Positions 5,194-58,203 of a stretch of DNA of 64,000 nucleotides are shown one piece after another. A program made the translations under genes and the position numbers. Position 1 is the stretch's first letter; each line of letters begins with the position of its first letter. This DNA is from Callorhinchus milii (Eukaryota). The stretch lies in the NCBI RefSeq assembly GCF_018977255.1, contig NW_024704752.1, forward strand, positions 620,001 to 684,000, read 5' to 3'. Under the pieces are notes generated by a model that was not told the DNA's origin, did no database searches, and saw only the letters and a list, made by a program, of their open reading frames with translations.

Positions 5194-8100
5194 ATGTATT
5201 ATGCTCTATTGATGGTGCAACTCATATTTATCCCTGCGATGGCGAATAATGATTCACTTTGCAGACGGCGAGGGCAGTTTAATTTACCTGGAATATCAAA
5301 GGATGGTGACTTTGTCCTGGGTGGAATCTTTAATATTCACTACTATCGAGAGGAGCAGGTTCTGAATTTTACGTCTCAGCCAGCACGACCAGTGTGTAAA
5401 AGGTTAGTCAATCCTTGTAGCTGGAGACGCTTGAGTAAAGCTACATTTCAAGCTTGTGGTTCTAAATCAACTTTACTTCATAAGGTTACAGCTTTAAAAA
5501 TGTTTCGCAAAAGCTTTACTTAAAAATATCAGGGTGAATTTATGAGATAAGATCAACTTCATTAGCAGGGAATGAAAACCAAAGGAAACTGTGCAATGGG
5601 TGAAATCATGTTTTTTGGAGACTGTTCATTCTTAGCTTTATTTTGGAGCTTTTGGGGAAAAAAAGCATTTTCACTTTCATAGGCTCTGCAGTTTGTCATC
5701 ATCTCCACCATGTAAATAGACAGGGGTTCACTCTGATGATTCTAGCATTCAAAATTCATCATTGTACCAACAGGAACCACTCTGCTCATGCCATGTAATG
5801 CAGAGAACCTATTATAACCAAACTGATGGCATACGCTTTCCTGCTGCTTGTCCAGCTAGGACAATCCTACCCATTAGGACTTTGTCTTGCAGGATTAACA
5901 GGAGCTGAGTGGGAAGAGTCTCTATCCTCAGTGACTGGTCTGCACTTCCAAGACCTGCAATGAGCCAGGCCCTGGAATACTGCATCGCTCAGGAACCGGA
6001 CCGCTATAGAGGGCTGGCTCAATTCCGACACTCCTTTGTCACTCACATCTCCTTAGAGCTCATTCAACTTGAACTATAATATATGATTATGTGCAATTTT
6101 AGGCCTCCACATATGTATCTGAAGTCACCTCAAAACGTTTCTATCTTGCAATGTTAGTTTGAAATATTAAGTGCGTTAGTGGATCTTGCCCCGAGGCTCC
6201 GGAACTCCCTTCCTCACTCCCTTTGTCTCACTCCCTCTCTTCCCATTTTCAGGTCTCTGCTGAAGACCTTTCTTTTCGACTGCGCCTTTGGTCACCTTCA
6301 CCGACCTCCCCCTCCCCCTGGCTCCTCCCCTCCCCCTGGCTCCCCCCCTCCCCCTGGCTCCCCCCCTCCACCTGGCTCCCCCCCTCCCCCTGGCTCCCCC
6401 CCTCCACCTGGCTCCCCCCCTCCACCTGGCTCCCCCCCTCCCCCTGGCTCCCCCCCTCCCCCTGGCTCCCCCCTCCCCCTGGCTCCCCCTCTCCCCCTGG
6501 CTCCCCGCCTCCCCCTGGCTCCTCCCCCTCCCCCTGGCTCCTCCCCCTCCCCCTGGCTCCTCCCCTTCCCCTGGCTCCTCCCCCTCCCCCTGGCTCGGCC
6601 ATGGGATCCGTTACTGTAAAGCGCTCTGAGACGCTGTCCAGCGTGGGGGGCACTATATAAATCCAAGTTGTTGTTGTTGTTGTAAATCTGTCGTTTCATC
6701 CCCCAGTTTTGATCTGACACAATTCCAGTTTGCTCAGACCATGATCTACACCATCGAGGAAATAAATAGTAACCAAACTTTACTTCCGAATATTAAACTG
6801 GGCTACAAGATCCACGATAGCTGTGGTGATCCAGCTATGACTACCAAGGTGACCACCATGCTTATCACTGGGCAGGAAGAGACGCTAGCTGAAACAAAGT
6901 GTAATACAATCTCTGATGTCCCTGCTCTGATCGCAGATGCTGAGTCAATGCAGTCTGTAGCAGTAGCGAGGGTAATTACTCCCTTCAATATTTCAATGGT
7001 AAGCCAACTTCCTGCATCATTATGCTATCACCGTGTCTGCCGCTCCATTCAAATAATGTTAGAAACCGAACTTGATTATAGTAACAGTAATAAATGAAGA
7101 AGACTTGAGTACACACTCAAAAACATTAAATGTGTATTAATTGAACTCTGATAGATTTCATTTTATAATATGCATTTACGTATTTCCTAAACATATATTC
7201 AGTTCGTAATAATAATAATCCTTGCATTTGATATAGCGCCATGTCATGTCTTCGAGAGGTCTCAAAGCGCTTCACAGAATATACTGTAAAGTGAATTGAT
7301 TGTATATTTTATTGGTGAGATGCGGCAGCCAATTGTGCACAGCAGCGTCCTACAAACAGTCCTCCTCCTAGTCCTACCAGTGAGCCAGATTAGCTGGTCT
7401 GTCATCAGTAATGCCCTGGAGTATGGTGGACATACCTAGCTCGGACCACCAAGGACGGCCACAGAGAGTGGACTCAACTCCAACCTTCTATTGCCAAGCA
7501 TGTCCACCTGAAATTGGATGGACTTGGTTCCAATAGCCATTTGCAGTAATGTGACGGCAGGAATCAAACAAAACCCTAATCACAAGAACACACATTAATT
7601 CTTATTGGTACATTTTTTGGGGGGGTTATGTGAAAGGTTCACTTTTGAACTAATGAAATAGTTGCAATAGGTCGCATCTTCACATAATGGCCGCTTTGGT
7701 AGACAAAAAAACACCAAGGTCCATCTAGTTCGACTTCTACCACCCAGGCAGTCGCATGCACATATGTCTCCATTCCCCCAGCACCTCTCCAGTGTTCAGT
7801 GATTTTTGAAAGATTTCTGCTAGCATTTCTGCGACTTCCTCCCTTAGTTCCTTAAGGATGCAATTTATCCGGCCCCTGAGATTTATTTACCTTAAGTTTA
7901 CACAACCGTTTGGCAACCATGCTGGTAGTGATATGAATAACGTTACAACTTTTTTCTGCGATATCCTTGAGTTCTCTTTCCAGATCAGATAGGTTGCCCG
8001 TCTACTCCTTGGTAAGGACTGATGCAAAGAACTTATTTAGTACTATTGCAACCTGTGCAGGATTATTTGGCATGTTGTTTCCTGAACCTGCCTTCATTGG

Positions 8101-11100
8101 CCCTATTCCTTTGCTTGTTTTTCTCCTACCCTTAATGTAACGACGAGGAGTCGTGGATTGAGTGACCAAATTTTTTTTTTAATGTTGTATTTATAATCCA
8201 ATTTCTAACTATCCACATGCCTTTTAATAAGCCCTCAAGAGAAAAAAGCGATAATAAAAATTGGTCACTTCAATCCATGACTGCTGTGCGCAATTGGCTG
8301 CCGCGTTTTGCCCACAAAATATGCAGTCAATTCATTTTACAGTGCATCCTGTGAAGCGTTTTGAGACATCTTGAAGACGTGAAAAAGTGCTACATCAAAA
8401 GTGCAAGGATTATTATTTTAGGGTTATTATCCCTTACTATCTATCCACCTCAGTCTTGAAAATGTGAATGGATCCCCCAACCCCAGCTCGGGTCCGAAAT
8501 GCTGTACACTGTCCAGCACCTTGGGACATCCTCCCGACGTGAAAGGCGCTATACAAATGTAAACTTGTTGTTGTTTTTGTTGTATATCACTGTTTGTTTC
8601 CAAATCCCGACAGGTCAGTTATTCCGCTGCGTATGACTACCTCAATAATATGTACGAATTCCCTACATTTTTCCGAACGATTCCCAATGATTACCATCAG
8701 GTGGAGGCTTTGGCTCGGATTATCAAATACTTTGGCTGGAACTGGATTGGTACAATCAGGAGTAATTCCACCTATGGCGCTCTGGCCATGGATGAGATTA
8801 TAGAAGGAGTCCAGAAACTCGATATCTGTGTTGCCTTCTCAGAGGTGATTCACAAAACGGACTCCAGAGAGAGACTGATGGAAATTATCAATGTGATAGA
8901 ACAGGCAACCACAAAGATTATTGTTGCTTTTGTTGCTCAGGCGGATATCGCGGTTTTACTAAAAGAAATTGTTCGTAATAACGTAACCGGTATTCAATGG
9001 ATCGGCAGTGAATCTTGGATTACAATGCCCAATCTCTCTCCGAAAGAGCATGCAAGATTTCTTGTGGGGACATTGGGATTTGCTGTGCCCAGAGCAACGT
9101 TACCAGGATTGAAGGAATTTCTTCTGCAAATTCACCCATCGAAGTATCCTGGGAATGAATTTGTTAATGAATGTTGGGAAAAAACATTCGATTGCACCAT
9201 GACAGAGCCTGAAAATCTAAACCCATTCGACCCCAAATCACAACTCAAACAATGTACTGGTCAAGAGCGTTTGGAAGATGTAGATAATCAATACACTGAT
9301 ACCTCACAACTGAGGATAGCCTACAATGTGTACAAAGCGGTGTACGCTGTAGCTCATTCACTCCACAATATGCTTTCCAAACAAAACGATTCCTTCACTA
9401 CTCTTGACCTATGGGAGGTAGGGAGAATGTAGAGTTTTAATAGTAAATTAAAATGAGTGCACTTTTAGAAATTATATTTTTTGGATGTGGATCATTTATT
9501 GGAAAAAACAAGGTTGGTAACTCTTAAAGAATGCAATTGTCTCAAAAATAGTTAATAATAATAATCCTTGCATTTGATATCGCGCCTTAGCATGTCTTCG
9601 AGACATCTCAAAGCGCATCACAGAATATACTGCAAATTGTTTTAGCAATAATAGGCAATATGTTGTTTTAACAAGTTTTTACACAATTTATTGGTTAAGT
9701 GATTTATTCTGAGATAAGTTCAATATTTTACATCCATATGTTCCAAATGATAACGGTTAGTATGGACTCAAAGGGCAAAAAAGTCCAAGCGAATGATTCT
9801 TTCTCTCTCTCCCTTTCCCAGTTGTTACATCACATGTATGCAATAAATTTCACTGCTAAGAATGGAGAAAGTATCTACTTCGACCAAAATTTGGATACAG
9901 TCCCACTATACGAATTGGTAAACTGGCAAATGAACTCAGAAGGTATAGCGCATGTTGTGACAGTGGGGCATTATGATGGACTTGTACATCCCGATAAAAG
10001 GCTGTTTATCAACAAAGACGATATTGTCTGGATAGGTGGGGGAAAGGAGGTAAGTTCACTTGGAAACTACATTACCTATTTTACCTGTTTGTTAGTTGAT
10101 TGACGATTGCTTTACAGGGGCGATAATCCCCTCAAAAATTGATAATAATAACAATGTAGTCACTCAATCCACGACTGTGTGTAGGACACTGCTGTGCGCA
10201 ATTGGCTGCCATGATTCGCCCACAAAACACACAGTTGCTACACTTTACAGTGTATCCTGTGAAGCGCTTTGAGACGTCTCGAAGATGTGATAAGGCGCTG
10301 TATCAAATGTAAGGATAATTATTATTATTCTGTGAAATACTTTGAGACATCTCGAAGATGTAATAATGCGTTACATCAAATGCAAGTATTATTATTATAC
10401 AGTATTTTAATTTTTTGTTCAAAGCTAGCAACAAAAAGTAAAAACTAATTTTTTTTTGAGTCGTTCCTAATAATAATAATCCTTGCATTTGATATAGTGC
10501 CTTATTACTTCATCAAGACATCTCAGAGCTCCTCACAGAATATACTGTAAAGTGAATTGACTTTATATTTGTGGACGAAACGCGGCAGCCAATTGCAGCA
10601 GCCAAATGGGCCAATCAGCTTCAAATCAATAAATCCTTAATCTGATCAATTTGGGTTATCTGGATTTCTGTAGCTCAGTGATTAGAGCACTCGCTTTGCA
10701 AGCGAGAGTCCCGAGCTCAATTCCAGGCAGTGCGAAACTTTGGGCAAGTTTCCTTACTCCACACAGAGCCTAATAATAATCCCTCCAAAAAACCCAAAAC
10801 AATAATAAATTGGTCATTTTTGTGGGACATTGCTGTGCGCAATTGGCTGCCGCGTTCTCCCACAAATATACAGTCAATTCACTTTACAGTGTGTTCTGTA
10901 AAGCGTTTTGGGATGTCCTCCCGACGTGAAAAGCGCTATATCAAATGCAAGAGTTATTATTATAAACAGTAGTTGTCGTGTGCACACCTATGCAACATGG
11001 TAACAGTCTGCTCTTGGTGCTTCACTTCAGATGATATGCTAAACTGATGTCCTGTCTACTAGTTCAGGTGGATATTAAATACTCAATGGTACAAAGCAGA

Positions 11101-12995
11101 AGAACATGGAGTTCTCCTGTGTTCTGACCTCCTTTATCCAATTGCTCCCAAATGGTAGTTCATCTCATTGCCCTGTGTGACGTTTTGCTGGTGTATTGTG
11201 CCAATTTTTCTGCATAACAACATTAATTTCAAATAGCTTAGGTTTAGGATATGAAACACATTGATCTTGTTTTAATTTGACTTGTCAGGTGCTGGATCGA
11301 ATGTACATAATACTTTCTCCTTCTCTTTACACTTCTCTGAAACTCAGGCCCCTCGCGGAGTGTGTTCTGACAGCTGTCCTCCTGGTACATGGAAAACAGT
11401 GAAAAAGGAGGAGCCTGTGTGTTGTTTTAGCTGTGTGCAGTGTGCGGATGGCCAAATCACAAACATAACAGGTATTCACATTTTGACACACACGGAAACC
11501 CATCACCGTTGCTTAAGAGCATCCAAACCAAGCTGAGAATTCCATGCATCCCACCTACACATGGAAATCCCAGAGATAGATGGTTGGAATGGGATGCGCT
11601 CTCTCCCCAGAAGGACACACCCTGCTCACCTATTTCCAGAAACTATTAGGCGCAGCTTGGCAAGGCTTGTGGAGCCAGCAATGTATGTTGGGGTAACTGC
11701 TGGAATCTAACCAGCTATAAATGGTTTAGCTTGCCATTGATATTGATGGCTGGCAATTTTCCCGCTGCTTGCACAGCTGGGACCATCCTACCTGTTAGGG
11801 CTTTGGCTTGCGGGATTAAGAACAACTGAATGGGATGACTCCATGCCCCCAATACCCTGGAATACTGCGGCCGGACCGTCACAGAGTGTGGGCTCGATTC
11901 TGACATTCCATTGCCAAATGTTACCTTGGAGCCAGTTCAGCTCCAAGGAGATCCCACTTATTCACGTACTGTATTCAAAAATTACTCTCCAGGGGTCCGA
12001 AATCCCACTTAGTTTTAGTATGTAGGACTGATTTGATTCTTTTCTGCAGTGGCATTTCTCTAGAAATATGTGATTTATGTTATTACTTTCACTCAGATGC
12101 ATTATCTTGCTTGAAATGCTCCTCGGAATACTGGTCCAATCAGTTCAACAACCGCTGCTTGCCTAAGGAAATCGAGTTTCTCTCCTTTGATGATCAAATG
12201 GGGAAGTCACTGGTCATTCTGGCAGTGGTTGGAGCAGGGTTAACATTAGCCACAGCTGGAATATTTTATAAATTCAGAAGCACTCCCCTGGTTAAAGCTA
12301 ATAATTCTGATCTAAGCTTCCTCCTACTTTTTGCACTAATCCTGTGCTTTCTGTGCTCACTTACATTCATCGATAAACCATCCCGGTGGTCCTGCATGTT
12401 ACGACACACAATATTCAGTATTAGTTTTGTTCTCTGTCTCTCTTGTATCCTGGGAAAGACAATTGTTGTGCTGATGGCATTCAAGACAACAATGCCCAAT
12501 AGCAAGAAGAAGATCAAGTGGTTTAGTCCCATACGTCAAAGAATAAACGTTTTCATCCTTACATTTATCCAGACTTTACTATGTATCCTCTGGCTTACCA
12601 CCTCCCCTCCTTTCCCTGTGAAAAACACTTCATACTACAAGTCTATAATCATTCTAGAATGTAATGTGGGCTCCATGGCGTACTTTTGCTGTGTGTTTGG
12701 TTATATTGGTGCTTTGTCATGCGTGTGTTTTGTACTTGCATTTTTAGCTAGAAAACTACCGAATAATTTCAATGAAGCTACATTTATAACCTTTAGCATG
12801 CTCATCTTTTGTGCAGTTTGGATAACTTTCATCCCAGCTTATGTCAGCTCTCCTGGGAAATACACAGTGGCTGTAGAAGTATTTGCTATTTTAGCATCTA
12901 GCTTTGGTCTCTTAGTCTGTATTTTTGTTCCCAAATGTTACATTATAATTTTTAAACCTGAAAAGAATACAAAGAAATATTTAATGAAGAAATAA
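5194..12995 (+). CDS. G1: V2R/OlfC-family class C GPCR, divergent paralog, 6 exons, 851 aa
   Basis: Exons 5194-5402, 6707-6998, 8614-9417, 9822-10049, 11348-11471, 12097-12995, all GT-AG; sum 2556 nt, open frame. Signal peptide, [30 protein letters not shown], cysteine-rich domain (VCSDSCPPG...CCFSCVQC), 7TM with VKANNSDLS and [12 protein letters not shown]. Confidence 0.95.
6188..6682 (+). mobile_element. L2 LINE 3' end containing an expanded minisatellite
   Basis: [12 protein letters not shown]...[14 protein letters not shown], then ctgtaaagcgctctgaga...ctatataaatccaag(ttg)n tail. Confidence 0.88.
6305..6594. repeat. 18-bp C-rich minisatellite (cctccccctggctccccc), about 16 copies
   Basis: Directly visible tandem array; explains the PPPPGS / LPLAPP ORFs. 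Confidence 0.95.
7700..8140 (-). mobile_element. CR1 LINE fragment
   Basis: Tail ccaaggtccatctagttc is the reverse complement of the 14283-14300 tail; upstream-of-RT CR1 motifs on the minus strand. Confidence 0.7.
10662..10962 (+). mobile_element. tRNA-derived Deu-type SINE (internally deleted)
   Basis: A/B boxes, core and tail; further partial copies at 7207-7360(-), 8250-8420(+), 9555-9635(-), 10085-10400(+), 10468-10600(-). Confidence 0.88.
11485..11950 (+). repeat. Unclassified ~500-bp interspersed repeat
   Basis: Homologous segments at about 5830-6070, 15410-15635(-), 37270-37330, 38010-38165 + 38540-38630, 57165-57920. Confidence 0.7.
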
Positions 12996-13707: not shown

Positions 13708-13800
13708 AGCATCCACCTGATGGGAATCATTGGGAATCATTCGGAAAAATGTAGGGAATTGGACATAGTCATTATTGAGATAGTCATACGCAATGGAATA
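13708..13800 (-). pseudogene. Inverted ~90-bp copy of the start of G1 exon 3
   Basis: Reverse complement reads YSIAYDYLNNDYVQFPTFFRMIPNDSHQVDA versus G1 [30 protein letters not shown] (8620-8710). Confidence 0.9.
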
Positions 13801-19000: not shown

Positions 19001-21657
19001 GTAATAACAAAACTGATTTTATGAATCACAGGTCAGCTACTTTTCCACATGTGCCTGTCTCAGTGATAGGAAAGAATATCCCACGTTTTACAGAACCATA
19101 CCCAGTGACTACCATCAGTCCAAGGCTTTAGCTCAAATCATTAAGAAGTTTGGATGGACGTGGATTGGGACTATCAGAAGCAACAATGACTATGGTAACT
19201 TTGGAATGCAGGCATTTGTAGACATTGCGCAGGAACTTGGCATTTGCATTGCCTTCTCGGAATCATTTTATAGAACTGATTCTCATGACAAGATAAGGAA
19301 AATTGTAAATATAATCAAAATATCAACCACAAAAGTCATCGTGGCGTTCACTGCCAAAAGAGAAATGCGGATATTACTCAAAGAAATGATACGTCAAAAT
19401 GTCACTGGAATTCAGTGGATAGGAACTGAATCATGGATAACAGCACAAATTATTTCTCCAGCCGAAGTCACTCGATTTCTCACTGGGGCAATTGGACCTT
19501 CAATTCCTTCGTTAGAAGTGAAAGGATTGCGAGAATTTCTGCTTAAAATCCATCCTTCTGGGTTTCCCGGAAACAGTTTAGTGAAGGAGTTTTGGGAAAC
19601 TGCGTTCAACTGTACTTTCTGGTCAGGAAACACAAGCCAAATAACTGCATACACATTGCAGCAATGCACCGGCAATGAAGATGTAACAGAAATACATAAT
19701 GCATATTCTGATGTATCTATGGATGGAAGTTCCTACAATGTATATAAAGCAGTGTACGCTGTGGCTCATGCACTTCACAATATGTTTTTGTGTGAGAAAG
19801 GAAAAGGACCATTTATAAACAACACCTGTGCACACTCATCAAATTTTCAACCATGGCAGGTTAGAGAATATAGATTCAATGAAATTATAATATAAATTGA
19901 CTAGTTATTTGTGGAACTTAATTTGGATCAAATTAACATGATTTGAAACCGTTTGACACATTATAACATTGTTGGTTTCTATTCTTGCAAAGCTTCTTCA
20001 TTACTTAGAGTCAGTAAATTTCACAACTAAATCAGGTGACACAGTTAATTTTGACGAAAATGGAGACTCAGTAGCAACGTACGACTTGGTAAACTGGCGA
20101 ATCAACTCGAAAGGCACTGCTGAAATTGGCACTATTGGCTTCTATGATGGTTCGGCATCTCTGGGTAATGAGTTAGTGGTGGATGAAGAGGTCATTGTAT
20201 GGAACGATGGTCAGAATGAGGTACAGTATTTTACCAGCTTGCATTGTGCTAAGATGAAACAAGGTTAATAATTTTAATACGGGTTAAAAATTAACTAATC
20301 TTCAACAGAAATTATGAACAGAACTTGTAAATACAAGAATAAATAAAACAACAATCATTGCATTTCACAACAGTGTCTTGTCACTTTGTCCGAAGCCATT
20401 GGATTTTCCTTGAAGTCTAAATGGTTGCCATTTTGTAGATGAATGGTGGAGAAAACTTTGCCCAAGGCAATATCCCACAAGCAGCCATAAAGTTAATGGC
20501 CAATTTAATTTTTATGTTGGAAGATGCCACGTGCTGTTTGCAGTGAGAGCTGTATTCCTGGGACAAGAAAAGTTGCCAGAAAAGGCCAACCCGTGTGTTG
20601 CTTTGACTGTACAGAATGTGCTGAGGGAGAAATCAGCAACATCACAGGTGAGTGTGAAATTCCTCTTCCTATTTAACGCTTCTCTTTCAAAAACTCCCTT
20701 TAGTAATATTCATGCCATACTTACTGAATTATCGCACCTTTCCCAGATTCCACAGACTGCATTAAATGCCCTGAACAATATTGGCCCAATCAGCAGAGAG
20801 ATCGTTGCCGACCAAAGGAAATAGAGTTCCTCTCCTTTACCGAAATGCTGGGAGGTGTATTGCTGACATTGGCTCTGGTGGGAGTGAGCACCACAATAAG
20901 TATTGCCATTGTCTTCTTCACACACAGAGACACTCCTATTGTTAAAGCCAACAATTCGGAGCTCAACTATCTGCTTCTCTTTGCATTAACGCTGTGTTTT
21001 CTGTGCTCAGTGACTTTCATTGGCGAGCCCTCAGTCTGGGCTTGCATGTTGTGCCACACAGCATTCGCTATCGCTTTCGTTCTCTGTATTTCCTGTATTT
21101 TGATTAAAACAATCCTTGTGATTCTGGCGTTTAAGGCAACTCTTCCAAACAACAACATGGCCAAATTGTTCGGGCCTGCTCAGCAGCGTTGGAGTGTATT
21201 CCTCCTTACCTCTGTTCAGTGCCTGATATGTACTCTCTGGTTAACTATATCACACCCATTTCCCATGAGAAACACAGAATATTACAGAGAGATTATCATT
21301 CTGGAATGTGACCTGGGCTCTGTGAGCGCCTTTTATTCTATGGCGGGATATATTGCTTTCCTGGCCGGAGTGAGCTTTGTGCTGGCGTTTCTAGCTCGGA
21401 AATTACCTGATAACTTTAATGAGGCTCAATGTATAACCTTTAGCATGCTCATCTTTTGTGCTGTTTGGATCACTTTTATACCAGTTTACATCAGCTCTCC
21501 TGGGAAATACACCGTTGCTGTCGAAGTCTTTGCTATTTTAGCCTCGAGTTTTGGGTTATTGTTTTGTATTTTTGTTCCTAAATGTTACATTATTTTGATA
21601 AAACCTGAAATGAATACCAAAAAACACTTGATGGGCAAAGTACCTGTAAATAAATAA
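16050..21657 (+). CDS. G2: V2R/OlfC-family class C GPCR, 6 exons, 862 aa
   Basis: Exons 16050-16255, 17303-17594, 19032-19859, 19993-20220, 20524-20647, 20747-21657; sum 2589 nt, in frame; VFT + CRD + 7TM motifs; C-terminus GKVPVNK. Confidence 0.95.
16590..16962 (+). mobile_element. CR1 LINE 3' end
   Basis: aggtgttcaaaattctgaggggttttgat...tggaatgtattgcctgaaagggtggttgaagcag...gcctccttctgtgctgtaa. Confidence 0.85.
17652..18638 (+). mobile_element. Tandem Helentron/HINE-like non-autonomous units
   Basis: Start ctagctgtacc...gcttcgct; three ends of the form (acag)n-acatt-cgttttat-agtataga (17760, 18330, 18638); 18115-18330 and 18450-18638 are direct repeats. Confidence 0.55.
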
Positions 21658-22893: not shown

Positions 22894-25800
22894 ATGTTCA
22901 GCCCATATGTGTGGCTGCTCATTGCTTGTTGTGTTTGGGGATCCCAGGGAAAGCATTGCAGGCTCCAAGGCAAGTTCAATCTATCGGAAATATCCAAAGA
23001 TGGCGATATCGTTCTAGGAGGTATCTTTGATGTACACGTTGATCACTTTGAACAAATGAATACGTTTCATACTTCCCCGGAAGAAACTAAATGCAAAAGG
23101 TGAGCTCAGTAATGTTAGGGACCATCATATGATCTGAACTGGATAATCACTTGAGTAAAACAATACATACTGGAATATAGCTCGAAGGTGGAATAACAGT
23201 AAATATGAGCAGGGATAACAGGAATTAGGATGACAGAGATCTCACAGATACCATGGGAATAAACTGTACCTTTAGATTCTATTCATTCATGTGCCGCATT
23301 TATCAAATTTCTTTCTATTTTATAAATGTTGATAAGTACCATAAATCTATACAGCACAATATTTAGTCATCTTCCAGAAGGCTGATGCCTTCATCTGTCT
23401 TTACTTCATGTAATTCATGGAAAATTAATACTGTATACTGTTGTCAACTTAATTAATGAGTTAATCCCAGCCCTCTGAGTTGCTCCCTTCTTGAAGGATG
23501 CTAAAGAAATGAAATATTAGTACTGTTCATGTTGTTGTAATGATGCGCAGTGCATTGCACATGAAGGTACTTGGTTAGTTATTGTGCATTTTATCATTCA
23601 GCGGAATCTTATTACAATGTAAATTGTAACCTGGTAGGAAGTCTGGCTCAATTGGCAGCACTCGTGCTGTATTTCAGAAGGCTGTGTGTTCATTCCTCTA
23701 CTTTAGGATTTGGATCTTACAGCCTAGACTGAAAGTGCAATGAAGTGCTGAGGGGACGTATTGCATTGCGAGAGGTGTCCTGATTCGGATAAAATGTTAT
23801 AAACCAAGGTCTTATTTGCATGTTCATGTGAATATTAAAGGTGGACGGAGAATTTTAATAGACTTGAGAGTTTCTCACATTTTCTGGCCAACAATCATTC
23901 AGTTCAAGGCTATTCCCAACAGCCGTGGAACCCAATAATTTATTATTGCTATTGAGTGCATTCCGTCTAATGGAAATAATATTACTTACATTTGAGAAAG
24001 TGTCTTTCACCTCGAGAGGAACATCTCGAAGCGCTCATTGTGTTCCCTGCAAACTGGTTTTGTTGGCCCATTATTGTTATAAAGCACATATTGTTAAAAC
24101 TGCCATGGAATGTAAGGGATTCTGAAATATATTTATATTCTACATAAATTATGGATTTATCACCCAGTTTCGATTTTAGAGCCTTCCGTTTTGTTAATAC
24201 AATGGTATTTGCAACAGAAGAAATAAACCAGAACCCGGCACTGCTTCCTGATATTACTCTGGGATATAAGATTTATGATGCCTGTGGATCTTCCAATATT
24301 GCCACTAAAGTAGCACTGAGCTTTGTGAACGGTCAAGGAGCAACAGAGGATGACCATAACTGTGAAGGGCCTCCTAATGTCCCAGCTCTTGTTGGTGGTG
24401 ATGGTTCCTCAGTTTCTATAGCTGTTGCAAGGTCAATTGGTCCATTCAAAATCCCAATGGTACGTTATCATTTTCATATACATAGTTGGTAATTCTCCTC
24501 AAAAATTAACATTTACCCAAATACTTAAATATCAAAACGTTAAAACCTGGAATAAAAATATACAGTTAAATATTCATGTATTTTGTTTATTGTTCGTAAG
24601 AGATCGAAATTGTTCTATTATAATAATAACATTGTTTGGGTTCCAAGCAAAAAAGTTGAAGGCTCCTTACCTAGCCTTATGTGATTGGTAGCTATTCAAG
24701 TATTGTTAATATTGTAAAAAATTATATTCATCAAATGTAAATAAAATACAAACTGTTTTTATTCTGATCCTGACTATTTTCTGTCAAAATCTCTAATCAA
24801 CTGAAGGTCAGTTACTTCTCCACCTGCGTCTGTCTCAGTGACAGGAACGAATATCCCACATTTTACAGAACTATACCCAGTGACTACCATCAGTCCAAGG
24901 CTTTAGCTCAAATCATTAAGAAGTTTGGATGGACGTGGATTGGGACTATCAGAAGCAACAATGACTATGGTAACTTTGGAATGCAGGCATTTGTAGACAT
25001 TGCGCAGGAACTTGGCATTTGCATTGCCTTCTCGGAATCATTTTCCAGAACTGATTCTCATGAAAAGATAAGAAACATTGTAAATATAATTAAATTGTCG
25101 ACCACAAAAGTTGTGGTGGCTTTTGCTGCCCCGAGGGAAATCCAGTTATTACTCAAAGAAGTAATACGACAAAACCTCACTGGAATACAGTGGGTGGGAA
25201 CTGAAGCCTGGATAACAGCCCAACCTATTGCCCCAAATGAAAGTGCGAGATTTCTTATTGGAGCAATTGGCCCAGCGATTCCTTCAGCAGAAGTAAAGGG
25301 ATTGCAGGAATTCCTTCTGAAAATTCATCCGTCTAAGTTTCCCGGAAATAGTTTAGTAAAGGAGTTTTGGGAAACTGCGTTCCAATGTAGTTTCTGGTCA
25401 GGAAACACAAGCCAAACAAACACAACATCCACATTGCAGCAATGCACCGGCAAAGAAGATGTAACAGAAATACACAATGGATATTCTGATGTAACTATGG
25501 ATGGAATTTCCTACAACGTATACAAAGCGGTGTACGCTTTAGCTCATGCACTTCACAATCTGCTTTTGTGTGAGAGAGGAAAAGGACCATTTATGAACAA
25601 CACCTGTGCACACACATCAAATTTTCAGCCATGGCAGGTAAGGAAACATTCGTACATAAAACATATCTGTATTGGTAACCAATGCTCTGTGTATTTTTTG
25701 AATTGTGTCAACCTACTGACGATTGTTAAGTTACTAACCATCTCATATAATAAACATTATCGTTCATGTAATGTGACGTTATGATTCCTCAATGCTGCCT

Positions 25801-27860
25801 TACATTTGATCATATTCTTTGATATTGTTGTACAGATTCTCCATTACCTACAGTCAGTAAATTTTACATCTAAATCCGGTGACAGAATTTATTTTGATGA
25901 AAACGGTGACCCCGTGGCCAAATATGACTTGATAAACTGGCAAAAGAATTTGAAAGGCGTTGCTGAAACTCGTGTAATTGGCTTCTACGATGGTTCCGCA
26001 TCTCCAAGCCGGGAGCTTACGGTGAATGAGGAGGCTATCGTGTGGAGCAATGGTCAAACTGAGGTGTTTATCTGTCTGCTTTAGAAAATAAACAATTACC
26101 ATGAAGGAGAATGTCAAACAATTCTGAAGTAGGAACCCAATTGTTAGTCGATTGGTGGATCACTCTTCGGGGAGTAAAAATTCCTTCAAAAAATATAATA
26201 AATTTACTATTTGTTCACTCCATCCACGACTGTTTGTGGGACGCTGCTGCGCGCAATTGGCTGCTGCATTTTGCCCAGAAAACATGCAGTCAATTCACTT
26301 TACAGCATATTCTGTGAAGAGCTTTGAGACATCTCAAAGGCATGATAAGGCACTATATCAATGCAAGGATTATACTTTTATGATTATAAAACATTAAAGC
26401 AAATTGTATTGATATCGTGCCCTTCACATACCATAGCGACTTTGAGTGTTTACAGTGGAGGCACTGAGGTGGGGGAATGAGGGAGGGGGGAGGTTACTGT
26501 CGGTGAGGAAGGTTCTGACATTCAACTTGAAGACCAACAAAGGGGGTGAGATTGAGGTGTGCATGGAGGCAGTTTCAGAGTTCAGGTGTAGAATTAAACA
26601 GCTTTGAGACAATACATCTTTATAATCAGTTCATTTGTGTTGTTTTGAAAATATGCATTGACTAAAGCCATTACTGATTGATTCATCTGCATCATTTTAT
26701 TTGACAAGTTTTATTTTTATTCTGAGATCCCACGTGCGGTTTGCAGTGAGAGCTGTATTCCTGGAACAAGAAAAGTTGCCAGAAAAGGCCAACCCGTGTG
26801 TTGCTTTGACTGTACAGAATGTGCTGAGGGAGAAATCAGCAACATCACAGGTGAGTGTAAAATTCCTCTTCCTATTTAACGCTTCTCTTTCAAAAACTCC
26901 CTTTAGTAATATTCATGCCATACTTACTGAATTATCGTACCTTTCCCAGATTCCACAGACTGCATTAAATGCCCTGAACAATATTGGCCCAATCAGCAGA
27001 GAGATCGTTGCCTACCAAAGGAAATAGAGTTCCTCTCCTTTACCGAAATGCTGGGAGGTGTATTGCTGACATTGGCTCTGGTGGGAGTGAGCACCACAAT
27101 AAGTATTGCCATTGTCTTCTTCACACACAGAGACACTCCTATTGTTAAAGCCAACAATTCTGAGCTCAGCTATCTGCTTCTCTTTGCATTAACGCTGTGT
27201 TTTCTGTGCTCAGTGACTTTCATTGGCGAGCCCTCAGTCTGGGCTTGCATGTTGTGCCACACAGCATTCGCTATCGCTTTCGTTCTCTGTATTTCCTGTA
27301 TTTTGATTAAAACAATCCTTGTGATTCTGGCGTTTAAGGCAACTCTTCCAAACAACAACATGGCCAAATTGTTCGGGCCTGCTCAGCAGCGTTGGAGTGT
27401 ATTCCTCCTTACCTCTGTTCAGTGCCTGATATGTACTCTCTGGTTAACTATATCACACCCATTTCCCATGAGAAACACAGAATATTACAGAGAGATTATC
27501 ATTCTGGAATGTGACCTGGGCTCTGTGAGCGCCTTTTATTCTATGGCGGGATATATTGCTTTCCTGGCCGGAGTGAGCTTTGTGCTGGCGTTTCTAGCTC
27601 GGAAATTACCTGATAACTTTAATGAGGCTCAGTGTATAACCTTTAGCATGCTCATCTTTTGTGCTGTTTGGATCACTTTTATACCAGTTTACATCAGCTC
27701 TCCTGGGAAATACACCGTTGCTGTCGAAGTCTTTGCTATTTTAGCCTCGAGTTTTGGGTTATTGTTTTGTATTTTTGTTCCTAAATGTTACATTATTTTG
27801 ATAAAACCTGAAATGAATACCAAAAAACACTTGATGGGCAAAGTACCTGTAAATAAATAA
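22894..27860 (+). CDS. G3: V2R/OlfC-family class C GPCR, 6 exons, 863 aa
   Basis: Exons 22894-23099 (alternative in-frame ATG 22864), 24168-24459, 24807-25637, 25836-26063, 26727-26850, 26950-27860; sum 2592 nt; C-terminus GKVPVNK. Confidence 0.95.
26128..26375 (+). mobile_element. Headless SINE shared in intron 4 of G3/G4/G5/G6
   Basis: Same position in the paralogs: 33648-33890, 41598-41805, 54037-54270. Confidence 0.85.
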
Positions 27861-29745: not shown

Positions 29746-29824
29746 CAGATGCAGCGACACATACAATATACAGCACAGTTTCATGATGACAAGGGATCAG
29801 CAGCGGTTACCGAGAAGCTCTGTG

Positions 29825-32800
29825 ATGTTCAGCCCATATGTGTGGCTGCTCATTGCTTGTTGTGTTTGGGGATCCCAGGGAAAGCATTGCAGGCTCCAAG
29901 GCAAGTTCAATCTATCGGAAATATCCAAAGATGGCGATATCGTTCTAGGAGGTATCTTTCATATACACGTTGACCGTTTTGAACAAATGAATACGTTTGT
30001 TACTGCTCCAGAAGAAACAAAATGCAAAAGGTGAGCTCAGTAATGTTAGGGACCATCGTATGATCAGAATTTAATAATAATAATGAGCCTTGCATTTGAT
30101 ACAGCGCCTTATCACATCTTCGAGACGTCTCAAAGCGGTTCACAAAATATACTGTAAAGTGAATTCACTGCATATTGTGTGGGTGAAACGCGGCATCACA
30201 GCAGCACGTGACTGGCAACAGTCATGGATTGAAGTGACCAATTTATTCTCATTATCTTTTTTGAAGGTTTTATTATTCCCGGAAAGCGATCCACCAATCG
30301 AACAACAACTCAGTTCCTACTTACTGCCAGGTAAACAGAGGCCTGTGGAGTAAGGAAACTTGCCCAAGGTTTCGCCCTGCCCAGGAATCGAACCCAGGTC
30401 TCTCACTTGCAAGGCAAGTGCTCTAACCACTGAGCTACAAGATTCCTGTTTCAGGATTCACAGTATTAATACTAGTAATAATAATCCTTGCATTTGATAT
30501 TGCACTTTTCACATCTTCGAGACGTCTCAAAGCGCTTCACCGCATATGCTGTAAAGTGAATTGAACATATATTTGTGGGCAAAACACGTCAGCTAATTGC
30601 ACACAGCACCGTTCCACAAACAGTAATGGATTGAAGTGACCAATTTATTATTGCTTTTTTTCTTGAGGGTTTATTAATAGGCGTGTGAATTAAGGAAACT
30701 TTTGCAAGGTTTGGCCCTGCCGGGAATCAAACTCAGGACTCTCGCTTTTGAGGTGAGTGCTCTAACCACTGAGCTACAGGACTGTAAGTGCAGTTGACAA
30801 AACCTACCAGGTCTATTTTAATGAAAATTGTATATTTATTAAAATGGAACCCCATTCCTGTGTGAATGATTTATCATTAAAGACTATTGAGAATTGTTCA
30901 ACAATTATACACAACATTTGTTGCCTAGAAATGTTTCACATTTATTTTAACTGCTATCCAAAATAAGATTTAGGAAATAATTATATGGATGGTTTTCCGT
31001 TTCCTGTTATAGTAAAAATACACTGACCTCACAGGTTTATTATTGTGTTATCCACTAAAACAACAACAGCTTGCATTACCGAGAAGCTCCGTGATGGACA
31101 GCCTATATGTGGGACTGCTCATTGCTTATTGTTTGTGGGGATCATAGGGTAGTGTCTTGAAGCACTTATTAATGGCTTAGTGGGACCCTTTGCTGGGAGA
31201 TAAGCTGTTAATTCTAGACTCTATCTGCTTGCTCAGGTGGACATGAAAGATTTCCTGGTTGTTTTAGAAAAGAGAATTGAGATTCTCCCCATGTTCTCGC
31301 CAGTATTGATTGGCTTCAGGGCTGCCTCAAATGTCCTGATCATCTGTAACCGTAATCGCTGCACATCTCCTAACTTTGTAAACAAATGATTTCAAATGTT
31401 CTTTATGTCACATGGGCTATGTCAAATGCCGGGCTGATTATTATTGCTATTATTGAATGCATTTGGCCCAATGGAAAGTAACATTAGTTACATTTAAAAC
31501 AGCGTCTTTCACCTCGAGAGTACGACTCAAAGTGCTTCACAGGATTTACTGAAAAGTGTAGTGATTCTATTCAAAAAGCACCTTATTGAAGCTGACATAC
31601 AATATACAGGACTCTGATATACCTGCAACATTAATGGTGGATTTCTCATGCAGTTTGGATTTTAGAGCCTTCCGTCTGGTCAATACGATGATGTTTGCAA
31701 TAGAGGAAATAAACCAGAACCCGGCACTGCTTCCTGATATTACTCTGGGATATAAGATTTATGATGACTGCAGTGTTTCCAATATTGCCACAAAAGTAGC
31801 ACTGAGCCTTGTGAACGGTCAAGGAGCAACAGAGGATGACCATAATAACTGTGAAGGGCCTCCTAATGTCCCAGCTCTTGTTGGTGGTGATGGATCCTCA
31901 GCGTCCATAGCTGTTGCAAGGTCAATTGGTCCATTCGGAATCCCAATGGTACGTTATCACGATAATATTGGTACAAAATCAGTTACCCTCCTAAAAGAAA
32001 ATAAATATTGAACATTTACCCAAATATTTCAACCTAAACGCAATACGAATATTGTGGATTAAATATATAAGTGAAGTATTCACGTCTTTTTTTTCAATTG
32101 TAGGAACAAATGGTAATTGTCTTATTATTCTTAATTGCTTATACATTGTTGGGTCTCCACCCCTCCGCACACCCCAAAATAATTCTTATTTAAGGAAGCC
32201 TTAGTGGATGATTAACTACAATGGAATTATTGAGATTGGAAACAATTATATTTATCAAACGAATGTAAAACAAAATGTTTTTATTCAAATGCTGACTGTT
32301 TTCTGTCTATATCTCTAATCAACTGCAGGTCAGTTATTTCTCGACCTGCGTCTGTCTCAGTGACAGAAATGAATTTCCCACATTTTACAGAACCATACCC
32401 AGTGACTACCATCAGTCCAAGGCTTTAGCTCAAATCATTAAGAAGTTTGGATGGACGTGGATTGGGACTATCAGAAGCAACAATGACTATGGTAACTTTG
32501 GAATGCAGGCATTTGTAGACATTGCGCAGGAACTTGGCATTTGCATTGCCTTCTCGGAATCATTTTATAGAACAGATCCACTTGAAAAGATAAGAAACAT
32601 TGTAAATATAATTAAGTTATCGACCACAAAAGTTGTGGTGGCTTTTGCTGTCCGTTCCGAAATGAAGTTCTTATTCAAAGAAGTAATACGACAAAACTTC
32701 ACTGGAATACAGTGGGTGGGAACTGAAGCCTGGATAACAGCCCAACTTATTGCCCCAAATGAAAGTGCGAGATTTCTTATTGGAGCAATTGGCCCAGCGA

Positions 32801-37717: not shown

Positions 37718-40700
37718 ATGTATGTGGGAAATATGTTTTACTTTTTCCTGTTAGAATTACTCAGACTTGAGGCCGGATGGGGAAGCGGTGAATATAGTTG
37801 TAAACTTCAAGGGAAGTTCGATTTACCTGAACTGTCAAAGGATGGAGACGTCATTCTGGGGGGACTTTTTAACTTGCACATGGACAGGGTTGAGAATGTG
37901 CATTCCTTTACTGTCCGGCCAAAAGCAGAACAGTGCAAACGGTGAGTGGATTCTCAGAGTAATTTATAAAAAGCTATAGTTAAGTGTATAGTAAATGTAT
38001 ATGGGTGTCTGACACATGTGGAAACCCATCGACATGCCTTCGAGTATCCTAACAAAGCTGAGATTTCCATGCTTACACATGGAAATTCCAGAGATAGATT
38101 GTTGAATGGAATGCGCACTCTCTCCGTGAAGGGTGACATCCTGCTCACCTAATTCTGAAAAGTATTAATAATAATCCTCGCATTTTATAGAGTGCCTTAT
38201 CACATCTTTGAGATGTCTCAATGTGCCTCACAGAATATTCTGTAAAGTGAATTGACTGTATATTTTATGGGCAAAATGCGGCAGCCAATTGCGCACAACA
38301 GTGTCACACAAACAGCCATGGATAAGTGACCAATTTATTATTATTATTTTTTTGAAGGAATTACTTCCCCCAGAAAAGCAATCTGCCATTCTACTTACAA
38401 CCAGGTTGCTTCTTACTGCTAGGTAAACAGAGGCGCGTGGAGTAATGAAACTTGTCCAATGTTTTGCTCTGCCGGGATTCAAACCCAGATTTCTCTCCTG
38501 CAAGACAAATGCACTTTAACCACTGAGCTACAGGACTGGAACACTGCAGATCTGTCTGGCTCAGGAACTGGACTACTGAGACCACCACAGAGGGCTGGCT
38601 CAATTCCAACTTTCCATTGCCAGGCATGCCACGCTGAAGATAGCCCAGCAGGAAACCCCGCTTAGTGCTCCCGTTCCCCCCCACCCCGGAGGATAGTCAC
38701 TAGTAGGTTGTTCCACATTCGACAACTCACTATGTGGAAGGAATTCCCTGGAAGTTTCCCAGTGGGCAAAACATCTCATCTTGAAATGATAACAGATAAA
38801 CAATAAAAGATAACTGACAGGAAGATGCAATTGATTATAAGCCCTGAGAATGCAAATCCAATTGGTTATTGCAATAAAGGGTAAACCACTGAACAACCAA
38901 CTTGCAACAAGCTGTGTCTTTACATAAATGGCTAATGACTGTAGTAGGATTCATATTTTGTCGTAGAAATAATTTTTGCAATATAATAAAAACATTCAAT
39001 CTCATTCCATGATGCTAATAATTTGTGTAACTCCAAAGGTTTGATTTCAGAGGCTTTCGCTTGGCTCAGACCATGATCTTTGCCATTGAAGAAATCAACG
39101 GAAATCACCTCCTGTTGCCAAATGTCACACTGGGATTCAGGATCCACGATGATTGTGCGTCATCCAAGATCGTGACAAAAGCGGCCTTAGCTCTTGTTAA
39201 TGGGCAGGAAGAAACCGGTTTGGGTTATTCTTGCACAGGACAATCTAATGTCATCGGGTTTGTCGGGACAGAAGGATCCTCTGAGTCTATTGCAGTAGCA
39301 AGAGTTATTGGTCCTTTTCAAGTTCCAATGGTAATGTTGTCAAATCCAAATCATTCAGAACTCTGCTGCCCGCATACTTACCCTGACCAAACTCCGTCTA
39401 ACCATCTAAGCCCATCTAACCATTCAGCCACTTTGTCTTGAAAATCTGGACCAATCTCCTTCAATCCCTCCGCCTTGCCCATCTCTCCCCTTTATCAAGT
39501 CCTGCCTGAAAACCTTCCTTTTTGACGGTGATTACAGTCGCCTCCCCTCCACCCCCTCCTCCCCTCCCACCTGGCTCGAAGTCAGGCTCCGCCACTCTTA
39601 AGCGTTCTGAGATGCTACCTTGCATGGAGGGCACAATATGGTCTATTGCCGATAATGTTTTTTGCTTAAATAAAATATACCGTTATTAAATTAGACCAAA
39701 GATTAATTTTACCTTTATGAAAACTTGTTTATCTGGAAAACAGTGAAGGCACTTTTCCCCTTCCTGATGGAAATCAGTCTGGTATAAATATGATCACTAC
39801 ACACGCGCACACACAAACACACACACACACACACACACAAGCACACATACATACACACTCCATTATCATTACATATATTTTTCTGCACGTTACTATTATT
39901 TTGTTCATGATTCTCAGAATCCATAGCCCTGGAAAAAATCATTTGATCTCTTTTCAAATTACAGAACTGTACAAATTGATGAGCATGTGTTTAAATTCCT
40001 TATGTACCCACAAAACAACAAAATAAAAAAGCCCAAAGACTATACTGTATTGGAAATACATAGTTAAACGATCACTGTAATGGAAATTGTTATTACTGTC
40101 AATTAAACCATATTCTACTAATTCTCATTCACACGACTTGGAATTTTACACAAGTGATGAATCTATATTTTAAGCTACATTAAGTTAAGTAAAACTTCAG
40201 CAATTTATGGGTTTTGCCTTCAGAGACCAGATATATTAATGATATTCTAAATGTCTTTTATCAATCACAGGTCAGCTACTTTTCCACTTGTGTTTGTCTC
40301 AGCAATAGGAACGAATACCCCATGTTTTATAGAACTATACCCAGTGACTACCATCAGTCCAAGGCTTTAGCTGAAATCATTAAGAAGTTTGGATGGACGT
40401 GGATTGGGACTATCAGAAGCAACAATGACTATGGTAACTTTGGAATGCAGGCATTTGTAGACATTGCGCAGGAACTTGGCATTTGCATTGCCTTCTCGGA
40501 ATCATTTTATAGAACAGATCCACTTGAAAAGATAAGAAACATTGTAAATATAATTAAGTTATCGACCACAAAAGTTGTGGTGGCTTTTTCTGCCCCGAGG
40601 GAAATGCAGTTATTACTCAAAGAAGTAATACGACAAAACCTCACTGGAATACAGTGGGTGGGAACTGAAGCCTGGATAACAGCCCAACTTATTGCCCCAA

Positions 40701-56872: not shown

Positions 56873-58203
56873 ATGTATGTGGGAAATATGTTTTACTTTT
56901 TTCTGTTAGAATTGCTCAGACTTGAGGCTGGATGGGAAAGCGGTGAATATAGTTGTAAACTTCAAGGGAAGTTCGATTTACCTGAACTGTCAAAGGACGG
57001 AGACATCATTCTGGGGGGACTTTTTAACTTGCACATGGACAGGGTTGAGAATGTGCATTCCTTTACTGTCCGGCCAAAAGCAGAACAGTGCAAACGGTGA
57101 GTGGATTCTCAGAGTAATTTATAAAAAGCTATAGTTAAGTGTATAGTAAATGTATATGGGTGTCTGACACATGTGGAAACCCATCGACATGCCTTCGAGT
57201 ATCCAAACCAAGCTGAGATTTCCATGCATTCTGCCTACAAGTCCTGTAGCTCAGTGGTTGGAGCACTCGCCTCGCAAGTGAGAGACCTTGGCTCGATTCC
57301 TGGCTGGGTGAAATGTTGGTCAAGTTTCTTTACTCCACATGCCTCTGTTTACCTTGCAGTAAGGAGAAACAGGGTTAATAGGCGATTGTCAGATCAGTTT
57401 ACTGGGAGTAATAATTGCTTTAAAAAAAATGGGTCACTTGAATGCACGACTGTGGAGGGACGCTGCTCTGCGCAATTAGCTGCCGCTTTTCACCCACAAA
57501 ATATGCAGTCAATTTACCTTGCAGTATATTCTGTGAAGCGCTTTGAGACGTCTCGAAGACGTGAGAAGGTGCTATATCAAATGCAAGGATTATTTACAAA
57601 TGGGAATCCCAGCACTAGATTGTTGGAATGGAATGCGGGCTCTCTCCCTGGAGGGAAGCATCCTGCCTACCTAATTCCGGAAAGTATTAAGCGAAGATTA
57701 GCAAGAGCCAAGGGTTGGAGAGCCCAGAGGGTGCGTTCGGTTACTGCTGGAGTCTAACCAGTTAAAACCACATAGCTCACCATTGGTATTAATGTCCGGC
57801 AAACTTTCCCGCTACTTGTCCAGTGAGGAGCACCCTATCCGTTAGTGCTTTGGCTGCAGTGTTACCAGGAGTTGAGTGAGATGACTCCCTGCCCCAGTGA
57901 CTGGTCTGCTCTTCCAGGTCCTGGTTTGTGCTGGCGTTTCTTGCTCGGAAATTACCTGATAAGTTTAATGAGGCTCAGTGTATAACCTTTAGCATGCTCA
58001 TCTTTTGTGCTGTTTGGGTCACTTTTATACCAGTTTACATCAGCTCTACTGGGAAATACACCGTTGCTGTCAAAGTCTTTGCTATTTTAGCCTCGAGTTT
58101 CGGGTTATTGTTTTGTATTTTTGTTCCTAAATGTTACATTATTTTGATAAAACCTGAAATGAATACCAAAAAAGCACTTGATGAGCAAAGTACCTGTAAA
58201 TGA
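56873..58203 (+). pseudogene. G7: internally deleted V2R (intact G5-type exon 1 plus only the 3' third of the 7TM exon)
   Basis: Exon 1 56873-57096 is nearly identical to G5 exon 1. Intron 1 sequence runs into the exon-6 fragment at about 57925 ([17 protein letters not shown]). Exons 2-5 are absent. Substitutions N>K, I>V, P>T, E>K and a +1 insertion near the C-terminus. Confidence 0.88.
57241..57594 (+). mobile_element. Full-length SINE in G7 intron 1
   Basis: A/B boxes, core, tail; flanked by tacaa on both sides; absent from the equivalent G5 site. Confidence 0.9.

What the first reader, a model, noticed from the sequence alone, without database searches (positions are those of the whole stretch)
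25119..25145. Hypervariable island in an otherwise invariant exon 3 maps to a ligand-pocket loop
Seen: after VVVAF the paralogs read TAKREMR (G2), AAPREIQ (G3), AVRSEMK (G4, 32647), SAPREMQ (G5), AARIEMQ (G6, 53027), AARTEMQ (G8). Codons differ by multiple bases (ccg agg / cgt tcc / cgt atc / cgt act) while hundreds of neighbouring nucleotides are nearly invariant. Established: this loop aligns with CaSR VIVVFSSGPDL and mGluR1 VVVCFCEGMTV, the lobe-II selectivity region of the Venus flytrap cleft. Inference: diversifying selection tunes ligand specificity against a homogenising background, analogous to a CDR.
Basis: partly seen in the sequence, partly recalled or inferred. Interest (0 to 1): 0.72.

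Follow-up and report, generated by a model that had tools for sequence, protein, structure and literature searches.

The report
Pocket loop escaping receptor gene conversion
In a cluster of smell-receptor genes of a chimaera-type fish, old gene copies have nearly identical coding sequence, likely because they keep overwriting each other, yet three codons that align to the odour-binding cleft of solved relatives stay different between copies, probably because selection keeps receptors with different odour preferences.

Summary
The island is real. Among nine near-identical V2R/OlfC exon-3 copies (five in the window), codons 107-113 hold 18 of 86 minimal changes; the uniform null never exceeded 13. 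Codons 108, 110 and 111 align to mGlu3 R277, mGlu3 D279 (a tested selectivity residue) and CaSR D275. Two corrections. The exon is not otherwise invariant: codons 1-22 and 80-100 also vary. And excess amino-acid change is not shown: one-tree site models are significant, but not after partitioning for recombination (p 0.21), and synonymous diversity rises in the loop too. Introns differ by 14-22% while exon 3 to exon 4 is almost uniform, so the copies are old and homogenised; the loop has escaped homogenisation. Variable sites favour cleft-facing loops (10 of 14 versus 20 of 170 tolerant sites), but this enrichment failed in a second cluster. Best reading: a selection-maintained divergence peak under gene conversion, a known kind. 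Also found: 18 genes share a 99% identical membrane exon, and two are ectodomain chimeras. The scan noted similar conversion in PAR1, TLR2 and HERC pairs of this genome, not in V2Rs.

The parts
25125..25145 (+). G3 variable loop, exon-3 codons 107-113 (AAPREIQ); core codons 108-110 at 25128-25136; codon 111 (E) is acidic in all 24 genes
   Evidence: strand-to-helix junction in the model of the G8 protein, pLDDT 94-96
25044..25106 (+). Second variable patch, codons 80-100; in G3 and in g755 partly a tract matching type-B paralogs
24807..24872 (+). Exon-3 codons 1-22: mostly synonymous diversity at the edge of the homogenised tract (5 N, 19 S)
24897..25031 (+). Exon-3 codons 31-75: block nearly uniform across all 18 close genes (4-fold diversity 0.008)
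25179..26063 (+). Homogenised background of type-A copies: exon-3 codons 125-277, intron 3 (mean distance 0.022) and exon 4
26950..27860 (+). G3 exon 6 (end of cysteine-rich domain and 7TM), 98-100% identical among 18 genes; similarity ends at the stop codon
22864..27860 (+). Gene G3, six exons, intact type-A V2R/OlfC (start codon not certain)
19350..19370 (+). G2 loop TAKREMR; G2 (16050-21657) has a diverged ectodomain but the shared exon 6
32647..32667 (+). G4 loop AVRSEMK (gene 29783-36050)
40589..40609 (+). G5 loop SAPREMQ; G5 (37718-43746) is a chimera with type-C exons 1-2 and type-A exons 3-4, switch after exon-3 codon 18
53027..53047 (+). G6 loop AARIEMQ (gene about 50164-55757)
56903..58179 (+). 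G7 remnant: type-C exon 1 and the 3' part of exon 6, middle exons missing
63725..63745 (+). G8 loop AARTEMQ (gene starts 61166 and runs past the window end)
5194..12995 (+). G1, distant V2R paralog (loop VAQADIA), outside the homogenised group

Best explanation
The 27 bases are the deepest peak of difference among nine otherwise near-identical V2R/OlfC exon-3 copies, and they encode a loop that aligns to the ligand cleft of CaSR and mGlu3; the copies are likely homogenised by non-allelic gene conversion, and selection probably removes conversions that would overwrite this loop because it likely sets ligand preference. Shown: old introns beside uniform exons, a uniform neutral intron 3, the peak, its alignment to cleft residues, an intact amino-acid-binding signature. 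Inferred: conversion as the process (from the mosaic pattern), selection as the cause of the escape, and an effect on ligand choice (by analogy with mGlu3 D279). The loop need not evolve faster than neutral DNA; it only has to resist being overwritten, and linked synonymous sites are carried along.
For: Introns 1, 2 and 4 of eight type-A copies differ by 14-22% on average, intron 3 by 2.2%; 4-fold diversity is 0.006 in codons 125-277. Neutral conversion simulations reached the observed 9-base peak in 5 of 838 runs, all five in a setting whose background diversity was twice the observed. Amino-acid-variable sites lie in strand-following cleft loops: 26 of 45 versus 80 of 454 (circular-shift p 0.002); synonymous-only sites do not (10 of 45 versus 57 of 454, p 0.1); among family-wide tolerant positions 10 of 14 cleft sites vary in type A versus 20 of 170 elsewhere. 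Codons 108-110 vary in all three module types A, B and C. Cleft sites show a longer local tree (2.3-6.9 times) rather than omega above 1, as expected for a divergence peak (Fawcett and Innan, PMC3924837, passages read). Codon 110 aligns to mGlu3 D279, whose swap with mGlu2 E273 shifts agonist potency 10-15 fold; codon 108 to R277 (PMC9253128, passages read). CaSR S272 and D275 line a hinge site next to the bound tryptophan derivative (PMC4928972, passages read). The 8-residue amino-acid signature is complete in 23 of 24 genes (definition from PMC1764893 section 10). The R-S, R-I and R-T loop alleles occur at no other locus matching the pattern (3 of 4 genome hits; the fourth is non-coding), and none of the five non-PR alleles is in the other 15 genes.
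Against: No robust omega above 1 after partitioning. The cleft-loop set was defined after I had seen the variable sites, and the enrichment did not replicate in the second V2R cluster at C11:9.8 Mb: 25 of 45 versus 209 of 447 (p 0.28); M2a LRT 0.07 (3 divergent genes dropped per exon, 4 of 16 for exon 4). There the loop still ranks 8th of 268 five-codon windows. Type-B exons 1-2 show no site-model signal. Mismatch-sensitive neutral conversion does produce six or more local haplotypes in many runs (21 of 31 in the setting closest to the observed background). Four of nine copies share the same P-R loop, so the loop is not fully protected. No ligand is known for any shark V2R (PMC6368271, passages read), and I had no model coordinates to measure distances.
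Confidence: 0.6

Rival explanations
1. Classical diversifying selection: new amino-acid changes at codons 108-110 are fixed faster than the neutral rate.
For: One-tree M2a and M8 are significant and flag codons 108-110, also with multi-base hits. With the rate fixed to the tree of codons 101-124, omega for 108-110 is 5.4 (p 2e-4; that tree includes the loop). Type-B exons 3-4 also give M2a LRT 14.4 with the same codons (one tree, includes a chimera). Diversity at first and second positions of codons 109-110 is 0.48 against 0.07-0.25 at unconverted 4-fold sites.
Against: Partitioned test not significant (p 0.21); omega 0.45-0.98 for 107-113 with a free local rate; minimal counts give 11 N and 7 S in the loop; 35 of 475 intron windows are as diverse. 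This rival can hold together with the best explanation; the confidence is for it being the main cause.
Confidence: 0.2
2. Neutral ratchet: the loop tolerates change, a few multi-base mutations arose, and local mismatch then blocked conversion, so the island feeds itself without any effect on function.
For: Loop positions are among the most tolerant in fish V2Rs. Mismatch-sensitive simulations give many haplotypes, and 5 of 127 runs of one setting reach the peak. Synonymous sites vary too. Cleft enrichment failed in cluster 2.
Against: Equally tolerant segments and neutral intron 3 stay uniform: 10 of 60 high-entropy sites in exon 3 (from codon 23) and exon 4 vary in type A. The same three codons vary in three module types. 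CpG decay does not explain it: 1 of 14 CpG sites elsewhere in the exon varies.
Confidence: 0.15
3. The loop alleles are short tracts imported from diverged paralogs, or the uniform background is an assembly or polishing artefact.
For: Import from type-B genes explains part of the codon 80-100 patch in G3 and g755, and codon 109 CCG is shared with type B. Donors may have been lost or lie in unassembled DNA.
Against: No donor for the other alleles among 24 genes or in a genome-wide pattern search for three of them. Independent de Bruijn contigs of 4 of 4 runs (one study, which may include the assembly's source) show one collapsed 212-243-base contig at depth 77-109 just downstream of the loop and separate low-depth contigs with the loop alleles. 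Copies carry different introns and insertions.
Confidence: 0.05

Closest known systems
Divergence peaks under gene conversion: human red/green opsins, RHD/RHCE (Fawcett and Innan review, PMC3924837, 9 passages read; Teshima and Innan 2008 not held, known only through that review)
   Same: Old tandem copies homogenised by conversion, a uniform neighbouring intron, and a narrow peak of synonymous and nonsynonymous difference at a functional site.
   Different: Nine to eighteen copies with six local haplotypes instead of two loci with two alleles; most introns here are diverged and only the short intron 3 is uniform; function of the site untested.
Teleost OlfC distal-pocket variability (Alioto and Ngai, PMC1764893, section 10 and passages read; Yang et al., PMC6588630, 12 passages read)
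   Same: Conserved proximal amino-acid signature with variable side-chain pocket; weak or absent site-level positive selection in zebrafish; gene conversion and M8 signal reported in OlfC subfamily 9.
   Different: Those studies compare diverged paralogs; here the variation stands out against 97-99% identical exons, and conversion was mapped along the gene. Whether codons 108-110 are among their figure-defined distal sites could not be read (figures not held).
mGlu2/mGlu3 selectivity residue E273/D279 and CaSR hinge site S272/D275 (PMC9253128, PMC4928972, PMC11252437; passages read)
   Same: Same strand-to-helix loop of lobe II by alignment.
   Different: Shown there with a synthetic agonist or a bound ion or water; no ligand data for these receptors. 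Human T1R1 R277 and T1R2 D278 (PMC13034538, passages read) probably fall at codon 109, but that register is recalled, not tested.
Clustered protocadherins and receptor pairs with converted membrane cores such as CCR2/CCR5 (Noonan 2004 not held, seen only as a reference in PMC3924837; CCR2/CCR5 from an earlier scan note, paper not read)
   Same: Domain-limited conversion that keeps one part constant and leaves the specificity part diverse.
   Different: Each V2R gene keeps its own copy of the constant exon; there is no shared spliced constant region.

Membership tests
V2R/OlfC class C GPCR | ANF_receptor + nine-cysteine + 7tm_3 domains | tested here: met
   All three above Pfam cut-offs in the G5 and G8 proteins P0150, P0151
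V2R/OlfC class C GPCR | Six-exon structure with intact frame | tested here: met
   24 of 25 modelled loci in C11:610-871 kb intact; three use a GC donor
V2R/OlfC class C GPCR | Closest to, but distinct from, CaSR | tested here: met
   Best solved relatives are CaSR; a gene with the CaSR loop lies on contig C4, 39% identical; nearer hits are fish V2R-like proteins. No formal family tree was built.
V2R/OlfC class C GPCR | Eight-residue amino-acid-binding signature | tested here: met
   Complete in 23 of 24 genes; G1 has A for T
fish-type V2R cluster | Flanked by PLC-eta1 and neprilysin (PMC9018814) | tested here: inconclusive
   M13 peptidase hits at C11:2.4-5.9 Mb and a PLC at C11:18.96 Mb, same contig but not adjacent; identities not checked
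V2R/OlfC class C GPCR | Expression in olfactory neurons and activation by amino acids | not testable with these tools
   Needs tissue RNA and assays
Selection-maintained divergence peak under conversion | Old duplicates with homogenised flanks | tested here: met
Selection-maintained divergence peak under conversion | Peak deeper than neutral conversion gives | tested here: met
   5 of 838 simulation runs over seven settings of my choice
Selection-maintained divergence peak under conversion | Orthologs share the peak alleles while paralogs share the flanks | tested here: inconclusive
   Contigs of four other organisms differ at the loop, but tables were cut and orthology cannot be set
Selection-maintained divergence peak under conversion | Functional difference between alleles | not testable with these tools
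   Needs loop-swap assays
Positively selected site (omega above 1) | Significant after recombination partitioning and local synonymous rate | tested here: not met
   low power with nine sequences
Antibody CDR-like diversification | Somatic rearrangement or targeted mutation | not tested
   All differences are between germline loci in the assembly; nothing seen suggests a somatic process

The most novel reading that the evidence does not exclude
The cluster works as a germline cassette system for smell: 18 genes keep one interchangeable membrane and signalling exon, a second uniform block in exon 3 serves as a swap point that joins different N-terminal halves (types A, B, C) to different lobe-II halves, and selection guards a few cleft codons so that recombination builds new ligand pockets. 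G5 and g797 would be products of this shuffling.
Probability: 0.3. Interest if true: 0.65.

Novelty: new member of a known kind. Interest (0 to 1): 0.42.

Why it matters
No shark or chimaera V2R has a known ligand (PMC6368271). These copies are a natural set of near-isogenic receptors with the same membrane part and a handful of pocket differences, so the side-chain code of the pocket becomes directly testable by loop swaps. The case also warns on method: V2R trees built from the transmembrane region alone (as in PMC9018814, methods passages read) would read these 18 genes as a very recent burst, although their exons 1-2 differ by 37% at 4-fold sites, and one-tree site models give positive selection that does not survive partitioning.

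Tried and rejected
Omega above 1: found with one tree, lost with four partitions. Out-of-sample test of cleft enrichment in the 9.8 Mb cluster: not significant. CpG hypermutation: rejected as main cause. Donor import from extant paralogs: holds for part of codons 80-100, not for the loop; the extra pattern hit on C31 is non-coding. GC-biased conversion signal in exon 6: none (GC3 0.46 versus 0.47). Distance to the ligand: the AlphaFold model and Foldseek gave no coordinates, so cleft position rests on alignment and secondary structure. Expression: no RNA holder listed. Related organisms B-E: contigs laid (4 of 12 small-share runs), tables cut, no haplotypes readable. Human T1R register: the bridge reached a T1R1 and T1R3 chains only, so R277/D278 mapping is untested; mGluR1 numbering was not found in one paper search. 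Papers not held: Luu 2004, Noonan 2004, Teshima and Innan 2008. Literature searches for V2R conversion: 0 papers; 1 paper, teleost; 1 unrelated; the library lacks most subscription journals, so absence from print is not established. Supplements were not opened; those of PMC6588630 and PMC9018814 may list conversion tracts or gene models that bear on novelty. The exon-5 part crashed and was not used.

Full report
Setting. The window is G000:C11:620001-684000. It holds seven six-exon class C GPCR genes and one remnant, part of a tandem array of 25 modelled loci (24 intact) in C11:610-871 kb; four more V2R-like exons at 570-598 kb were not analysed. Records on a contig of the same length are labelled Callorhinchus milii, so this is very likely elephant shark. 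Domains, exon structure and the amino-acid-binding signature (23 of 24 genes) fit V2R/OlfC; a CaSR-loop gene lies elsewhere.

Observation. The peptides and coordinates are right. Nine exon-3 copies form a 96-99% identical group (type A). Their loops read AAPREIQ, AVRSEMK, SAPREMQ, AARIEMQ, AARTEMQ, AGDTEMQ, AAHTEMQ and twice AAPREMQ. Codons 107-113 carry 18 of 86 minimal changes in exons 3-4, beyond all 20,000 uniform placements. The exon is not otherwise invariant: codons 1-22 carry 24 changes (19 synonymous) and codons 80-100 carry 24, whereas codons 23-79 and 125-277 carry 3 and 7.

Position in the protein. The alignment to CaSR is gap-free: codons 108-111 are S272, G273, P274, D275. S272 and D275 coordinate a hinge-site ion or water beside the bound tryptophan derivative (PMC4928972, passages). 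Through a genomic mGluR, codon 108 is mGlu3 R277 and codon 110 is D279 (numbering checked on T174); both contact a selective agonist and the D279/E273 swap shifts potency 10-15 fold (PMC9253128, passages). In the AlphaFold model of the G8 protein the loop follows strand 258-262 and opens helix 265-277 at pLDDT 94-96; the fold matches CaSR ectodomains (TM 0.9 by target). Distances could not be measured. Codon 111 is acidic in all 24 genes. Across 148 single-unit homologs codons 109 and 110 are in the top 7% of entropy, so this is a family-wide variable site, in line with the variable distal pocket of teleost OlfC (PMC1764893).

The background is the anomaly. Among eight type-A copies (G5 left out) introns 1, 2 and 4 differ by 14-22% near the exons, intron 3 by 2.2%; diversity falls from intron 2 into exon 3 and rises again after exon 4. 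The copies are therefore old and the tract from exon 3 to exon 4 has been homogenised. Across all 18 close genes 4-fold diversity is 0.37 in exons 1-2, 0.008 in exon-3 codons 31-75, 0.22 in the rest of exons 3-4 and 0.010 in exon 6; similarity ends at the stop codon. G5 has type-C exons 1-2 and type-A exons 3-4 (switch after codon 18, before about codon 80); g797 switches from A to B between codons 84 and 96; g857 has type-C exons 1-2 on a distant body. Contigs of four runs of the same organism (one study) show a single high-depth contig over the uniform part and separate contigs for loop alleles, which argues against a polishing artefact.

Selection tests. My own codon models (F3x4, fixed relative branch lengths): one tree gives M2a over M1a LRT 14.2 and M8 over M8a 14.2, flagging codons 85, 89, 90, 108-110, 185 and others; with double and triple hits 9.9. 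With four segment trees the LRT is 3.2 (p 0.21); with a free local rate omega is 0.45-0.98 for codons 107-113 and 0.84-4.1 for 108-110, never different from 1; with the rate tied to the codon 101-124 tree it is 5.4. Type-A exons 1-2 give p 0.03, type-B exons 1-2 nothing, type-B exons 3-4 p 8e-4 with the same loop codons, all on single trees; cleft sites show longer local trees, not omega above 1. Loop diversity is 0.44 against an intron mean of 0.23; 35 of 475 intron windows reach it, 0.3% of independent nine-column draws. Accelerated change is thus hinted at but not shown.

Why it escapes. Neutral conversion simulations (seven settings, tract 30-300 bases, with and without mismatch termination) reached the peak in 5 of 838 runs. 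Amino-acid-variable sites favour the five residues after each core strand: 26 of 45 versus 80 of 454, and 10 of 14 versus 20 of 170 among tolerant sites; synonymous-only sites do not. I defined that set after seeing the data, and it failed in the less homogenised cluster at 9.8 Mb (25 of 45 versus 209 of 447; M2a not significant), although model positions 236, 141 and 264 are again among the four most changed sites and the loop ranks 8th of 268 windows. CpG decay and import from extant paralogs do not explain the loop.

Verdict. A real divergence peak at a cleft loop in a conversion-homogenised receptor array, most likely kept by selection on ligand preference (0.6), with classical positive selection (0.2), a neutral ratchet (0.15) and import or artefact (0.05) as rivals. 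The kind is known from opsins and RH genes (PMC3924837), and conversion plus positive selection was reported for teleost OlfC subfamily 9 (PMC6588630). I found no paper on conversion in chondrichthyan V2Rs ('conversion' occurs 0 times in PMC6368271 and PMC9018814), within a library that lacks most subscription journals. Earlier scan notes describe similar domain-limited conversion in other genes of this genome; none concern V2Rs.

Noticed in passing
window 26950-27860 and exon 6 of 17 other genes, C11:639-835 kb: Exon 6 is 98-100% identical among 18 genes whose flytrap domains are 70-99% identical in protein; the identity stops at the stop codon.
   Followed up: yes
window 37718-43746 (G5); L042-L043 (g797); C11:855-861 kb (g857): Intact ectodomain chimeras: G5 type C to A, g797 type A to B, g857 type-C exons 1-2 on a distant receptor body.
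   Followed up: partly
window 56903-58179: Remnant gene with a type-C exon 1 (99% to g817) and the 3' end of exon 6; a similar exon-6 piece lies at C11:750 kb.
   Followed up: partly
C11:712-723 kb (L033, L034): A rearranged pseudogene fragment with an inverted piece, followed by a frameshifted gene (g718) that still has the shared exon 6.
   Followed up: no
C11:818728, 832688, 743300: Non-canonical GC splice donors after exon 3 of g817 and g831 and exon 5 of g740.
   Followed up: no
window about 51050, 51136 and equivalents in g704, g730, g797: Partial duplicate of exon 1 inside intron 1 of several type-A genes; G5 has a second type-C exon-1-like piece at 37049.
   Followed up: no
C11:9.79-9.93 Mb (L052-L066): Second V2R array of about 19 genes, less homogenised (exon 6 mean 88%), with variable sites at the same cleft loops.
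   Followed up: partly
window 25132-25136, runs X1-X4: Depth of the contig with the R-I/R-S type allele relative to the G8 allele ranges from 0.7 to 2.4 among four samples; possibly copy-number or conversion polymorphism, but contig depth is no copy number.
   Followed up: no
window about 6180-6620: Low-complexity C-rich tandem repeat in intron 1 of G1 giving proline-rich open frames; LINE-like reverse-transcriptase fragments between genes, e.g. 13784-14194 and 47700-48535.
   Followed up: no
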